A stretch of DNA of 64,000 bases from Eledone cirrhosa. Taxonomy: Eukaryota. Location: the NCBI GenBank assembly GCA_964016885.1, contig OZ024745.1, forward strand, positions 32,178,001 to 32,242,000. Reading direction: 5' to 3'. Shown piece after piece: positions 14,016 to 48,309 of this stretch (positions are counted from its first letter, which is position 1; each line of letters opens with the position of its first letter). The notes below the pieces were generated by a model. The model was given only the letters and a program-made list of their open reading frames with translations. It was not told the DNA's origin and did not search any database. Both the position numbers and the translations under genes were made by a program.

Positions 14016-14627
14016 GGTGGCTGCCAACTCGTTTTCGAGTACGGCCACTACTTTATATCCATGTAGGAGAACCCCTACCGATGCGCTGAACGAGTGTGAC
14101 TTTTTAGTCCAGCCAGCGACTTGAAAACTCTGGTACAAACACTACACTTGTGACAATTATTGACACATAGTGCTTTGCCTTTGGTACCATGTGACGACAA
14201 GTGCAGAGAGATCTCCAGATATAAAGCAATGCCTGTGCCGTGAAGCTTTTATAGTGAGCAAAGGCACTGCACAAAGCCAGTCCCACTCTCTTAACCAAGA
14301 TGATATTTACCAAAAAGAAGAACAAGTCAACATCATTGGATACCATCAGGGTTGCAGGTGTTATATTAGAGTTTTCCTTCTCCTAGAATTCTGCCTTGAC
14401 AAAGGCTAAGGGGTCATCTCTCCCAGTGATTTTGGATGGCCATTGACTCTTAAGAGCACCTTTGCCCTTTGACAGGTTTTGTTTTTAGTCCTGCAGGATG
14501 TCCAAAGTCACCCTCCTCACCAAGAAACCTTGGTGGGGTTGCCAGTTTAGTCGCCAACGACCCGACCATGAGACAGGTTGTACTGGGATACATGTTACCA
14601 GTAGCACCAAGTGGTGACCTGACATGC
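14016..14627 (-). mobile_element. Non-autonomous bipartite RTE derivative (RTE 5'UTR-like part + C-terminal zinc-finger part), copy 1
   Basis: Near-identical inverted copy at 21743-22317. Contains TAGCCTTTGTCAAGGCAGAATTCTAGGAGAAGGAAAACTCT (RTE 5'UTR-like motif) and [25 protein letters not shown] near the 3' end. Confidence 0.7.
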
Positions 14628-14679
14628 ATATATATATATATATACACATATATATATATATACACATATATATATATAT

Positions 14680-14730
<51 letters not shown>

Positions 14731-14750
14731 TATATATATATATACATATA

Positions 14751-17120
<2,370 letters not shown>

Positions 17121-18548: not shown

Positions 18549-19863
18549 AGGCAAAAGTACCACAGACGCTCTTTTCATAGTACGACAACTACAGGAGAAG
18601 TACCTAGCTAAAGGTAAACCCCTCTACTTAGCTTTTGTCGACTTGGAGAAAGCCTTCGACAGAGTCCCCCGCTCCATTATCTGGTGGGCTCTTAGAAAAC
18701 TAGGCGTTGACGAATGGCTTGTGAGGGCTATACAAGCCATGTATAAAGAAACAGTCAGCAAGGTTAGAATTAACAACGAATATAGTGAAGAGTTTAGCGT
18801 AAAAGTTGGCGTCCATCAGGGCTCTGTTCTCAGCCCACTACTATTTATTATTGCCCTTCAGGCTATAACAGAGGAGTTCAAGACAGGCTGCCCATGGGAA
18901 CTCCTATACGCAGACGACCTGACACTCATAGCGGAATCAATGGCCGAGCTAGAGAAGAAATTCCAAACATGGAAGCACGGCCTAGAGTCAAAAGGACTTA
19001 AAATTAACCTGGCTAAGACCAAAGTACTAGTTTGTAGGAAAGAAAACAAGGCGGCGGTCCCTTCTGGGAAATGGTCGTGCTCGGTGTGTAGGAAAGGCGT
19101 AGGTAGAAACTCCATTTTATGTCCTAAATGCAAAGTATGGGTGCATAAAAGATGTAGTGGGATCACAGGTAAGCTAACTAAGAACATAGATTTTACATGT
19201 GGCCGGTGCTCTGGTGCAATAAGTAGCAGCAAGTGCCCACAAAATACTAGCTCTTTCAATTGTGCAGAGGGTTCTATAGAAATAGTGGACAGCTTCCGTT
19301 ACCTGGGCGATAAAATCAGCAGTGGGGGAGGGTGCTCTGAAAGTACTGTAGCTAGAGTCAGAACTGGTTGGAAAAAGTTCAGAGAGCTTATACCACTATT
19401 AGCTGCTAAAGGGTTCTCACTAAAAATGAAAGGCAGGTTGTACGATGCCTGCATACGAACAGCAATGCTGCATGGCAGTGAGACCTGGGCATTGTGTGCA
19501 GAGGATATACGCAGACTAGAGAGGAACGAAGCTTGCATGCTCCGCTGGATGTGTAACAGTAATATACGTGAACGGCAAAGCATAAACGAACTAAGGAAAA
19601 AATTAGAGATAAGAGGGATCAGATGTTGTTTACTCGAGAGAAGGCTACGTTGGTATGGACACGTGATGCGCATGAAAGTCGATAGCTGTATAACAAAGTG
19701 CAGGGCAATAAAGATAGACGGTAGTCACGGAATAGGCAGACCTAGAAAAACCTGGGACGAGCTGATAAACTCCGACATCACACACTTACACCTCTCCAAG
19801 ACAATGTCACTGGACCGAGACCTTTGGCGGTACTCAGTAACAGAGAAGACCCGCCTTACCTAA
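18544..19863 (+). CDS. RTE reverse transcriptase C-terminal half with an inserted C4HC3 finger
   Basis: [58 protein letters not shown]; no stops. Confidence 0.93.
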
Positions 19864-20266
19864 ATATATAGTAAAACCTACTCCAGCCAGTAGGCATCTC
19901 TAACAAAATACACCCCGTCCCACCACCACCACCCCCACCCCATCCACACCACCCCGTTCTATGTAAAGTTATGTTGGTGCCGCGCCATCGAGGCCGAAAC
20001 AAATGAGATCGTGTAGGTGTCACGACAAAAAAACACACAGTCCACGCTGTAATGTGGCCGTGTAGGCAACACGGTAAAAACCTCCCAGACCCACACTGTA
20101 AATGTGGTTGGTGTTAGGAAGGGCATCCAACGGTAGAAAACCTGCCAGACAGTCCTATGCGAGCAAGACAATCACTCTTGCCTCAAGTGGGACTACCCCC
20201 GTCCAAACCCATGCAAGCGTGGAACACGGACGTTAAACGTTGATGATGATGATGATGATGATGATA
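18545..20266 (+). mobile_element. RTE-clade LINE, 5'-truncated, with intact RT frame, 3' UTR and (GAT)n tail
   Basis: Same family as 2..1282; ends CGGACGTTAAACGTT(GAT)n followed by (TA)n. Confidence 0.93.
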
Positions 20267-20418
20267 TATCTATATATATATATATATATTTTTAGGGTAA
20301 ATATTGATGCAATTCAATTCAAGCACTCAACGTACTTTTTTCACATCGGAGTGACGGAGTAAATATCGAATAATGAAAAGCGAAGTAGTTTCAGATGTTC
20401 AAGTCCTTTAATAATAAT

Positions 20419-20492
20419 GCTGTGATATATATTTCAGTGACGACACTGGCCACACTGTTCTGCGTGCGAGTGTCGTGTCATCATCAGACAGC
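20419..20492 (-). ncRNA. Type-I hammerhead-like motif with extended helix II
   Basis: GCUGU-CUGAUGA-[UGAC ACGACACU...AGUGUCGU CACU]-GAAA-UAUAUA-UC^ACAGC: 5-bp helix I and palindromic helix III; base of helix II is non-canonical. Confidence 0.7.
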
Positions 20493-21514
20493 TTGTTACA
20501 TAATAAGGTTATGCTTCCGAGGCAATCCAAATTGGATCGACAAGGGAACGGATGAATTGCGTGTTCTTGGGTTTTTCGTCCTCTCTCTCGTGAGTACCAA
20601 TTCACCCCCACCGGCCTGCGCAAGCGCATGTCTGAAGGAAGTTGACCATTCGCCACCGCAGACTTTAACGAAATTTGCTTAGTCAGTTAACCCTGTCATC
20701 CAAAACAATGGCCCACCAATGCCTGTACCATATTTTACTGCTACCCATCACGGCTGTGGCAGTCAGCCGAGAGCCAGAGGGGATGGGAGAGTTAGTTTTT
20801 ACAGGTCATAATACTACCCCTCACTAAGCGTTGACGGTACAACTGACCATCACCTTATTAGGGAAAATAAACTTATTCTAGGTATCTTGGTTTTACGTTG
20901 GAAGTTAAGAGTGAGAGTTGGAAATAAAAATTAAAATCCTAAATCAAATATCAGAAATTATAAATTAAACAATTAAGAAATTAACAATTAGAAATTAAAG
21001 AATTAAAAAAAATTCTTTTCAGGTGATAATTCGGATTGGGGTGAGTAAAAATATAGACTGAAGTGAGTAAATAATATGGAGAGAGGTGCTTAAGTAATAT
21101 GTTCTGAGAGGCATTCTAGTGTCACAGTTACTCTATCCACATATTGAACGACGGTGTCGTACATTATAACTACAGGGCTCCAGGCATTAGTGAATCTGGT
21201 ACACAGTCCTACTTTCCATCACATGGAACAAAATCAAAGAAAAACAGACATAAAGTACACAAAAGAAAAGAACAGAATCAACAGTGAATAAATGCAAAAA
21301 CACAGAGTACATATATGATCCATATGATTGTCCATCTGTCCATATATAGGTTGAATTGAGGGGGCCTCTGTTCAAGTGCGATTTGGTGCAGGCCGGTGGG
21401 GGTGAATTGGTACTCACAAGGGAGCGGATGAAAAACCCAAGAACACGCAATTCATCCGTTCCCTTGTCGATCCAATTTGGATTGCCCCGGAAACATAACC
21501 TTATTATGTAACAA

Positions 21515-21588
21515 GCTGCCTGATGATGACACGACATTCGCACACAGAACAGTGTGGCCAGTGTCGTCACTGAAATATATATCACAGC
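21515..21588 (+). ncRNA. Second (inverted) copy of the extended-helix-II hammerhead motif
   Basis: GCUGC-CUGAUGA...GAAAUAUAUAUC^ACAGC; one helix I mismatch relative to copy 1. Confidence 0.62.
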
Positions 21589-21742
21589 ATTATTATTAAA
21601 GGACTTGAACATCTGAAACTACTTCGCTTTTCATTATTCTATATATATATATATATATATGTATGTATATATGTATGTATAAATGTATGTATGTATATAT
21701 GTATGTATAAATGTATGTATGTATAAATGTATGTATGTATAT

Positions 21743-22317
21743 ATGTATCCCAGTACAACCTGTCTCATGGTTGGGTCGTTGGCAACTAAACTGGCAACCC
21801 CACCAAGGTTTCTTGGTGAGGAGGGTGACTTTGGACATCCTGCAGGACTAAAAACAAAACCTGTCAAAGGGCAAAGGAGCTCTTAAGAGACAATGGCCAT
21901 CCAAAATCACCGGGAGAGATGACCCCTTAGCCTTTGTCAAGGCAGAATTCTAGGAGAAGGAAAACTCTGATATAACACCTGCAACCCTGATGGTATCCAA
22001 TGATGTTGACTTGTTCTTTTTGGTAAATATCATCTTGGTTAAGAGAGTGGGACTGGCTTTGTGCAGTGCCTTTGCTCACTATAAAAGCTTCACGGCACAG
22101 GCATTGCTTTATATCTGGAGATCTCTCTGCACTTGTCGTCACAAGGTACCATGGGCCCAGCACTATGTGTCACTGTTTGTCACAAGTGTAGTTTTTGTAC
22201 CAGAGTTTTCAAGTCGCTGGCTGGACTAAAAAGTCACACTCGTTCAGCGCATCGGTAGGGGTTCTCCTACATGGATATAAAGTAGTGGCCGTACTCAAAA
22301 ACGAGTTGGCAGCCACC
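21743..22317 (+). mobile_element. Non-autonomous bipartite RTE derivative, copy 2 (5' end ~35 nt shorter)
   Basis: Near-identical to the reverse complement of 14016-14594, with the same 3' end GGCAGCCACC followed by AT repeats. Confidence 0.7.
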
Positions 22318-23814: not shown

Positions 23815-24269
23815 ATATATATATGTATAGATATATATTAAATGCATTCACATATGCATACATATTATTGTGGAAATGCATCTATGCATACACATACACA
23901 CATAATACAATATCATTTTTTTTATCATTTCATTTGCAAAATAACGTATTTTTAAAAAAAAACAAGATTAAGATAAATAAAAAATTCAAGATTGGAAATT
24001 TGAAAGTTTCTCTAAAAGATTTTTTCCAAACTTTCCAATTTTTGTAGAATTTTCAGATAAATCTATTTTGACAACTGCACCCACACCCCACACACACAAC
24101 ACAGGACACCTTACTATCATTTGTATTTTTATTTTTACTTTTTTTTATGTTATTGCACCACTAGAAACTCTAGAATTTTCAAAAGCTAACATTCCATGGA
24201 ATCTTGAACAATTAACCCAATTGAACCAATCCTCTATTAAGGAATGGTGGATAACATTTGTTGATGAGT

Positions 24270-25900
24270 CTTTAAGATCTTGAAGTCGTATGTCACTAGT
24301 GTTTATAGTGGATAGAGCTGTGCATATCCTTTTGGCGAAAGTGTATGGTAAATTTATTTTAGTGTGTCTCAAGTGACATGGAAAGGAAAATAAATATTGT
24401 TTAGAGTCTCTATTTGGTTGTTGTCATGTTTCTTTTACTAAAATATTTAAGAATAGCAGTTTCTCTTGACTGTATCCCATTATTATTCACATTATAGAGT
24501 AGGACAGTATCGATAGTGTCACACTTGCTTCGTGATCTAAGTTCATCCTTACGGGGTTGATAAAATAACGCACCAGTAATGCATTGGTGTTGATTTAATC
24601 AACTTTTCCCTTCCCTTCAAATTGCTGGCCTTGTGCCATATGTAAAAACAATTATTTATATCATAGATTATTACTTTAGGTTAATTAAATTTCTCTATTT
24701 TTTCATTCCATATAATAAAGCAATTGTCAAGAATTCTTTTCCAGTTCTCTTTTATATATTGATAAAAAGAGGTTCCACGTTTTTGTAATAATTCTTGATA
24801 CATTGAAATCTCCAAATAGCCCCCTACTAAATGTTAATGGTGGTGATGATGATGATATGATTATTATATTAAACATAGGTAGATTTTGGTGTCAAACTTT
24901 GGGTAAAAATGTGAATTTTATACACTGAAACATATAATAGCTATTTTGTAGAAAGAATTTAAAAATTTTAATTGTTAATTCCTTTTCTATTCGTTATGGT
25001 ATGCCATTTGTATAACTATCCAACCAGAATTTTAGGGTCTCAAATCCATAATCATAAAGGATATTTGTAAATAAATTCATTACATTAAAAGATACAATTA
25101 GGGATTTTTCATTGACTGTTTCTGAAAGGTGATTTAGCACATCTAAATCATTTCTTATAAAATTTGTAATATGTTTAAGAAATGATTTCAGTTGGATGTC
25201 TAAACAATTGCTTAGACAGTAAATTTCACATACTGGACCAACTTCTATTGGTTTTAATTTAAAATCAATTTGTGAAAAAATACTAACGCATATATTTGTG
25301 AATTCTTTACATGCTTCCTTTATCATTTTACTTTAGTGAATTTTTGGTAAACCATAGAAATGACTAGATTTCATTTAATGTTAGCTATGTATTCACATTA
25401 TTTATCCTTTCGACAGAAGTGTGACAACACTGAGATTTTTCATTATTCTCTAAGGTTGTATTTTTTAACCTTTCCCAAGTGTGTATTGTCTTATATCATA
25501 GATAAAACAAGGTTTTTATAAAATTTGGTATCCATCAATATAAATGCACTTTCTTTATTGGCTTCTTTAAATGTCAGTTCATTATGTTTTTCCATTTAGT
25601 ATTGCTGAACTCTGTTTATGTGTGCTTTTATATAGAAATTTCAAAATGTGGTGACAAAAATCATCAGGTGAAGAATAGTTTCTAACAATCAGCTCGTCAT
25701 TGCTATCCTTATCAAATAATTCTTTTGTAAGCTGCAATTTTCTGCACAACTATGAAATGTCATCTTTTATTTCATTGTAGCTAGTTCTTAGAGGGATTAG
25801 GATAAATTTTAGTACTTTTGCTAGTATATTGATTTATGGTATTTTTAATGTTTTCTTTGATAAATTTGTAACATTTATTTCTTTTCATTTCTCCTATTCC
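24270..25900 (-). pseudogene. Decayed Penelope-like RT ORF, interrupted by a Nin-type SINE (~24530-24655)
   Basis: LDIQLKSFLKHITNFIRNDLDVLNHL...LIVSFNVMNLFTNI (PLE SFDV.SLFTNIP motif) and RHTKINLPYTFAKRICT (PLE thumb region). Confidence 0.7.
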
Positions 25901-48045: not shown

Positions 48046-48309
48046 CAGTAATGGTTGCATTCTTTAAGGGTATGTCAATATTTATTTATAAAACTGATCT
48101 ATATTATATTTTATCTGATGAAAGCACACCATAATTTAACTTGGTGTCCTTGAAATATGTATAATGAAATAAATATGGTTTTATAAATATAGTTTCTATT
48201 TGCTAATATCGTATTTTTACTCCAAATATTTGTTGAGTGCTTTATATCAGTTATAAAAATATTTGCTTGTTGTATCCCAACAATTTAAATAGAACTCTTA
48301 CATATATAC

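What the first reader, a model, noticed from the sequence alone, without database searches (positions are those of the whole stretch)
20291..21639. Element with 250-bp inverted termini, each carrying an atypical long-helix-II hammerhead
Seen: 20368-20619 and 21388-21639 are inverted copies. Each holds CUGAUGA...GAAA with helix I GCUGU/ACAGC, palindromic helix III AUAUAUAU and an AUC site. Helix II is about 45 nt long (ACGACACU/AGUGUCGU plus an apical stem) and lacks the usual purine-pyrimidine closing pair, leaving an extra CU before GAAA. Almost no coding sequence remains. Inference: a heavily truncated PLE with an inverted 5' terminal repeat, carrying a hammerhead variant that standard descriptors could miss. 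Both ribozymes point outward toward (TA)n.
Basis: partly seen in the sequence, partly recalled or inferred. Interest (0 to 1): 0.75.

Follow-up and report, generated by a model that had tools for sequence, protein, structure and literature searches.

The report
Long hammerhead retrozyme riding Hydra-Penelope elements
This is one mirror-armed copy of a 1.3-kb non-coding repeat with about 1,900 hammerhead-motif copies in the genome; it is likely pasted into TA repeats by Penelope-type jumping genes, and its long-armed hammerhead is conserved and predicted, not shown, to cut RNA.

Summary
The inverted repeat and both hammerhead motifs are real. The element is not a truncated coding PLE. It is 84% of a ~1,300-nt non-coding unit that also occurs in tandem, with 1,902 exact motif matches genome-wide (control 0) and four subfamilies. 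No coding parent was found. Arm lengths vary widely, so these are not TIRs. The unit's 3' end and leader align with those of coding Hydra-clade PLEs in the same genome, the likely mobilisers. Read symmetrically, helix II has no extra CU: it opens with U·U, already listed for 14 of 25 Hydra-clade families and shown active in an axolotl retrozyme. Not seen in the papers I read: the long helix II with a C·C mismatch at pair 4, shared by five of six local families while neighbouring pairs covary; and a strict rule that inverted insertions carry the 70-nt tail on exactly one end (47 of 47 classifiable). Cleavage, expression and circles are untested; no RNA run was listed. The scan noted similar elements before, in this genome and others. 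Verdict: new variant of a known kind (animal non-LTR retrozyme / non-autonomous PLE).

The parts
20291..21639 (.). Whole insertion: two divergent arms of a ~1.3-kb non-coding PLE-dependent unit
20292..21392 (-). Long arm, about 1,100 nt of the 1,304-nt unit (unit positions ~526 round to ~336), ending at the 'long' end
20292..20367 (-). ~70-nt tail between the short and long 3' ends; present on this arm only; holds the ACTCC...GAGTGCT motif shared with coding Hydra-clade ends
20419..20492 (-). Type I hammerhead motif, intact helix I; predicted cut between 20424 and 20423 (after AUC)
21388..21392 (.). Inversion junction, 5-nt microhomology shared by both arms
21388..21639 (+). Short inverted arm (unit positions 9-260), ending at the 'short' end, no tail
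21515..21588 (+). Second hammerhead motif; helix I has a private C·A mismatch next to the core; predicted cut between 21583 and 21584
20265..20290 (.). (TA)n target, left flank
21640..21748 (.). (TA)n / (TATG)n target, right flank; no target-site duplication can be told within it

Best explanation
This is a mirror-armed copy of a high-copy, non-coding ~1.3-kb repeat with a conserved type I hammerhead motif, likely copied into TA microsatellites by the reverse transcriptase/endonuclease of Hydra-clade Penelope-like elements. Shown: family size, tandem units, two fixed 3' ends 56-64 and ~132 nt past the predicted cut, variable 5' ends, one tail per inverted insertion, end and leader similarity to coding Hydra PLEs. 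Inferred: tandem or longer-than-unit loci are transcribed; the hammerhead, as a dimer through its palindromic helix III or with protein help, would cut them into 1.3-kb monomers that may circularise; the PLE protein nicks both strands of (TA)n and starts one cDNA at the long site and the other at the short site; the two cDNAs join at microhomology, giving divergent arms with one tail. This copy is probably inert: each strand carries one sense hammerhead plus its antisense, and about 190 nt of the unit, including the leader motif, are missing.
For: 1,902 exact motif matches, control 0. 79 exact read-through junctions. Cut-to-cut units of 1,221-1,359 nt, median 1,302, in 71 intervals. One insertion holds about 4 tandem units per arm. 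Tail on exactly one end in 47 of 47 classifiable inverted insertions, 6 more unclassified; 10 of 10 in sister AT-rich-helix-I families (2 unclassified) and 3 of 3 in family F2 (1 unclassified). The 280 nt from hammerhead to leader align with coding Hydra PLE ends at scores 103.5-117 against shuffle means 63-64 (maxima 81.5-98.5), up to an ATG at the place of the Hydra start codon. The coding sister has RWR, DKT and CxCX5C, the Hydra marks of Craig 2021. No DNA similarity to a young Neptune-like family beyond AT-rich stretches. Structure on 60 distinct copies: 92.5% of cells paired, one compensatory A-U/G-C change in 24 of 60, several G·U changes, slid controls 12-56%. N7 varies (68 U, 33 C of 101) while the other core positions are 98-101 of 101. 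Across families helix I and pairs 10.1-10.3 change while staying paired; C·C at 10.4 in 197 of 223 motif contexts. In vitro, a PLE protein extends both strands and the tail lies between two RT start sites (PMC11167929, passages).
Against: No cleavage, transcript or circle shown. The exact autonomous partner was not found: similarity to coding Hydra ends is only motif-level, and only 150 of 54,299 Hydra RT candidates were scored, 20 of them fetched. The monomer is predicted to misfold: the hammerhead fold lies about 6-8 kcal/mol above the minimum and helix III probability is ~0 (approximate hand-set structure). Within the family covariation rests on few subfamily events; pairs changed on both sides (2) did not exceed shuffles (417 of 500). 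Copies were picked partly by the motif, so core conservation is partly circular. In the anole PLE the hammerhead was dispensable for insertion in vitro, and in vitro RT start site did not differ between strands. 8 of 9 Xenopus retrozyme dimers did not cleave (10.64898/2026.07.22.740005). Some tandem blocks look like later unequal crossing-over rather than rolling-circle copying.
Confidence: 0.8

Rival explanations
1. The unit is the long terminal repeat (3' UTR plus leader) of a coding Hydra-clade PLE that still exists unsampled, and the copies are its 5'-truncated ends.
For: Coding Hydra sisters have AT-rich 3' UTRs of about 1.4 kb with the same end layout. The unit has an ATG at the Hydra start position.
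Against: Read-through copies return to the same non-coding unit, not an ORF. Among 150 scored of 679 candidates for the post-ATG peptide the longest open frame was 204 aa, mostly 62. Among 256 hammerhead copies, only one locus had a PLE-protein hit upstream, and it was antisense. The short frame is frameshifted in subfamily B.
Confidence: 0.12
2. The element moves as described, but its hammerhead no longer cuts; it is kept only as part of the region the PLE protein recognises.
For: U·U closure, A·A mismatch in subfamily A, predicted misfolding. PLE minimal hammerheads cleave weakly in vitro (PMC4209133). Hammerhead not needed for insertion in vitro.
Against: Core kept across subfamilies 70-97% identical, with variation at N7 and pairing-preserving sites. 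U·U-closed axolotl hammerhead cleaves 22% as monomer, more as dimer (PMC7229834). One B-to-A chimera switches within -13..+86 of the predicted cut.
Confidence: 0.25
3. The repeats are terminal inverted repeats of a MITE or DNA transposon.
For: 250-bp inverted ends around non-coding DNA.
Against: Arms range from 36 to over 1,900 nt and 5' break points are scattered. Total lengths 350-4,028 nt. Many copies have no second arm, direct tandems occur, the ends are unequal (tail).
Confidence: 0.01

Closest known systems
Animal non-LTR retrozymes (Cervera & de la Pena 2020, PMC7229834, passages and discussion read; Li, Clavereau & Pollet 2026, 10.64898/2026.07.22.740005, parts 1-3 of 5 read)
   Same: Non-coding tandem unit with one type I hammerhead, palindromic short helix III, PLE-like ends; U·U at the base of stem II as in axolotl HHR_Amex2.
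   Different: Unit ~1,300 nt against 170-400 nt typical (51-972 bp in the vertebrate survey; '>1000 nt' is mentioned once in the 2020 discussion). Mostly dispersed, 5'-truncated and inverted. Long helix II. RNA and circles not shown here.
Hydra clade of C-terminal-endonuclease Penelope-like elements (Craig et al. 2021, PMC8557442; passages, section 11, supplement parts 2-3 and searches)
   Same: (TA)n target, inverted 5'-truncated arm, optional tail, hammerhead near the 3' end, U·U closure in 14 of 25 listed families, shared tail and leader motifs with coding Hydra copies in this genome.
   Different: No ORF. Helix II is 45-46 nt with internal mismatches, against short simple stems in the Hydra rows of that table. 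Tail ~70 nt against the 30-40 bp described for PLEs.
Minimal PLE hammerheads (Cervera & de la Pena 2014, PMC4209133, parts 1-2 of 4 read)
   Same: Type I, palindromic 15.2-16.2 region, likely dimeric, larger helix II.
   Different: Those have a bulge after A9 and G10.1-C11.1; here the junction is symmetric with U·U and a C·C at pair 4.
Poseidon PLE of the green anole (Frangieh et al. 2024, PMC11167929, passages)
   Same: Two internal RT start sites downstream of the hammerhead define the tail; both strands extended.
   Different: That element is coding, and no strand difference in start site was seen in vitro; here genomic insertions pair one long with one short end without exception.

Membership tests
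Type I hammerhead ribozyme | Core CUGANGA, GAAA, UH with three helices | tested here: met
Type I hammerhead ribozyme | Purine-pyrimidine pair 10.1-11.1 | tested here: not met
   U·U in 101 of 101 copies; same variant published for Hydra PLEs and axolotl
Type I hammerhead ribozyme | Matches an Rfam hammerhead model | tested here: not met
   no match listed at either site, E<=5
Type I hammerhead ribozyme | Self-cleavage | not testable with these tools
   no assay; no RNA run listed
Animal non-LTR retrozyme | Non-coding unit | tested here: met
Animal non-LTR retrozyme | Tandem units each with a type I hammerhead | tested here: met
   family level; the window copy itself has no tandem
Animal non-LTR retrozyme | Monomer of about 170-400 nt | tested here: not met
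   median 1,302 nt in 71 intervals
Animal non-LTR retrozyme | Expressed as linear and circular monomers | not testable with these tools
   no RNA holder listed
Hydra-clade PLE (autonomous) | ORF with RT and C-terminal GIY-YIG (RWK, DKT, CxCX5C) | tested here: not met
   absent from the unit; present in sister elements
PLE-mobilised element | Fixed 3' ends, 5' truncation, inverted arm, optional tail, (TA)n target | tested here: met
PLE-mobilised element | 3' end and leader shared with a coding PLE | tested here: inconclusive
   motif-level alignment above shuffles; no near-identical partner found
MITE / DNA transposon | Fixed-length TIRs and target-site duplication | tested here: not met

The most novel reading that the evidence does not exclude
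Hydra-clade PLEs and their passengers carry an undescribed hammerhead subtype whose long helix II with a conserved C·C is a docking site (tertiary or protein) that licenses cutting, and their integrase works as an obligately asymmetric dimer: one subunit starts at the long site, the other at the short site, on separate RNAs, and can jump between hammerhead-cut monomers. The one-tail rule (47 of 47, plus 13 of 13 in sisters) and one chimera switching at the cut region would be its genomic footprint.
Probability: 0.3. Interest if true: 0.68.

Novelty: new variant of a known kind. Interest (0 to 1): 0.42.

Why it matters
How PLEs make tandem and inverted insertions with a tail, and what their hammerheads do, are open questions (PMC8557442, PMC11167929). 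This family gives a countable rule that any model must explain: one tail per inverted insertion. It also ties a retrozyme-like RNA to a named PLE clade through shared end motifs, and offers natural variants (U·U, G-C, A-U, G·U closures around a fixed C·C) for a cleavage test. It further shows that current hammerhead models undercount these motifs. The kind of element is known, and the scan has noted relatives before.

Tried and rejected
Naiad link: Craig 2021 marks octopus and squid Naiads as 'HHR_half_core' with 35-50 nt spacing, but four short motifs of this element were not found in that supplement (line-wrapped DNA could hide a match), and the local evidence points to Hydra. Young Neptune-like 775-aa family as partner: no shared DNA. 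A 25-fold deeper 3' region in contigs of runs X1-X3 (one sample) led to an older non-coding subfamily D, not a parent. Recurrent 5' breaks just past the predicted cut looked like a cleavage footprint but about half (11 of 20 informative rows, one fetched twice) are another repeat inserted at that site. Template switches at the cut site: 2 switches in 266 arms, 1 spanning the cut, 0.16 expected; too few. An alternating two-unit array first read as a heterodimer circle fits later duplication better, as its block edges lie 230-280 nt upstream of the cut. Two-pass comparisons of 71 intervals did not separate circle from multimer templates. No RNA holder listed. Register with a bulge after A9 and G·U closure: considered, disfavoured because sister families are symmetric with C·C at pair 4. 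Lunse et al. 2017 on PLE hammerhead dimers is recalled only; not held, and it may list similar variants. Supplements of the 2026 preprint and of the 2014 and 2020 papers were not seen and may bear on helix II novelty. Literature searches for novelty. No protein-database, fold or complex jobs were run.

Full report
Observation. The window holds an inverted pair, 20368-20619 and 21388-21639, 96.4% identical. Each arm has CUGAUGA, 45 nt, GAAA, the palindrome AUAUAUAU, AUC and ACAGC, pointing outward to (TA)n. The right copy has a private C·A mismatch in helix I. Rfam lists no hammerhead at either site but scores a canonical one at 16767-16811.

The family. The genome is 3.0 Gb; it is probably an octopus, which is my inference from recalled repeat content. 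It has 1,902 exact matches to the motif and 0 to the control. Paralogs show a repeating unit of about 1,300 nt: 79 exact read-through junctions and 71 cut-to-cut intervals of 1,221-1,359 nt. One insertion has about four units on each arm. Four subfamilies (A, the window's, B, C, D) range from about 70% to 97% identity. The longest ATG-started sense frame in 4 copies is 47-76 aa, and the unit has no significant tblastn hit to Hydra or Neptune proteins. The window's long arm is about 1,100 nt of the unit.

Insertion anatomy. Copies end at two fixed places, 56-64 nt ('short') and about 132 nt ('long') past the predicted cut, nearly always on a microsatellite. The 5' ends are scattered, arms run from 36 to over 1,900 nt, and junctions mostly overlap by 0-5 nt; the window's overlap is 5 nt. 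This rules out TIRs. Of 53 distinct inverted insertions, 47 could be classified at both ends and all 47 have one long and one short end (30 of 30 in the smaller set). Sister families give 10 of 10 and 3 of 3, with 3 unclassified. Pairing was automatic and a few pairs may be neighbours rather than one insertion. Craig et al. describe the tail as 'often' on one end only. Frangieh et al. show that it lies between two RT start sites and that both strands are extended.

Who moves it. Flanks of the fetched loci hold other hammerhead families of the same design. One of them ends coding elements with RT and C-terminal nuclease whose protein has RWR, DKT and CxCX5C, the Hydra-clade marks. Hydra RT gave 54,299 first-look candidates. 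The unit's stretch from hammerhead to leader aligns with these coding ends above shuffles. It shares ACTCC...GAGTGCT in the tail and GCTCC...GAGCGCT..TA...TAAC before an ATG at the Hydra start position. Similarity stops there. Searches for a coding parent failed, within the limits stated under rivals. A young Neptune-like family shares nothing.

The hammerhead. In a symmetric register the four positions after A9 face the four before G12: U·U, G-C or G·U, A·A or U-A, C·C, then a 7-8 bp stem and an apical stem. Sister families support this register. They have A-U/A-U/G-C, G-C/G-C/U-A, G·U/G-C/A-U or A-U/G-C/G-C at the first three pairs, then C·C. C·C stands in 197 of 223 motif contexts, dominated by three heavily sampled families; one family has C·U. 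Helix I also differs between families while staying paired. Within the family 92.5% of cells pair, with one compensatory change and several G·U changes; these are few independent events. U·U closure is published: 14 of 25 Hydra families in File S2 of Craig et al. (my count) and axolotl HHR_Amex2, which cleaves. The long helix II with C·C was not in the texts and tables I saw. A monomer is predicted to misfold and helix III to form only between two motifs, as for other PLE hammerheads.

Mechanism. Shown: non-coding unit, tandem and inverted copies, two ends, one-tail rule, Hydra-like ends, conserved fold. Inferred: transcription of multi-unit loci, dimeric or protein-assisted cleavage, possible circles, and two-strand priming by a Hydra-clade protein at two different start sites. 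Evidence for cleavage in vivo is thin. One B-to-A chimera switches within -13..+86 of the cut, 1 of 2 switches found. One terminal fragment begins within a few bases of the cut. Other tandem blocks fit later duplication.

Earlier notes of this scan describe similar Hydra-riding, long-armed hammerhead elements in this and other genomes. I had stated my reading before seeing them, and no note matched this sequence.

Verdict. Real feature; works like an animal non-LTR retrozyme mobilised by Hydra-clade PLEs, unusually long; new variant of a known kind; interest 0.42.

Noticed in passing
window 16767-16811 (-): Canonical type I hammerhead (Rfam Hammerhead_1, 31.7 bits) in a different (TA)n-ending repeat.
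   Followed up: no
window 48107-48175 (+): 3' end of a coding-type Hydra sister family: same long-helix-II hammerhead with A-U closure, C·C, and tail.
   Followed up: partly
window ~24000-25700 (-): Decayed PLE RT relic, about 52% identical to a young family with many intact 775-aa ORFs, an upstream 410-aa ORF and no CUGANGA motif near its end.
   Followed up: partly
L096, L100 (Neptune-like family 3' end): This family has YUGAAGA...GAAA with no obvious type I helix I; may be a rearranged or degenerate hammerhead.
   Followed up: no
L038, L044, L048, L049, L053, L066, L067, L068, L205, L230, L233: A SINE-like repeat (name recalled, not tested) is inserted repeatedly about 5 nt past the predicted cut site, in more than one subfamily and with different truncations: a target hotspot.
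   Followed up: partly
unit positions 80-94 (window ~21460-21485): 5' break points of arms cluster (about 11 of 110 listed, some fetched twice) just upstream of a short palindromic hairpin.
   Followed up: no
L021, L056, L058, L064, L066, L067: Sister families keep a splice-donor-like GGTATGTCA some 25-50 nt upstream of the hammerhead; not evident in this family.
   Followed up: no
L104-L133 (family F2); L116: A second non-coding family with the closest hammerhead (G-C closure, C·C); one copy keeps an ATG and a few codons resembling the Hydra ORF start.
   Followed up: partly
L228/L229 (G000:C1:130.88-130.90 Mb): ~12-kb inverted insertion with three near-identical 1,322-nt units on one arm and alternating 1,321/1,309-nt units on the other.
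   Followed up: yes
window 14618-16450 (+) and 18550-19863 (+): Two non-LTR retrotransposon RT ORFs (RVT_1; the second with a PHD-like finger) flank the region.
   Followed up: no
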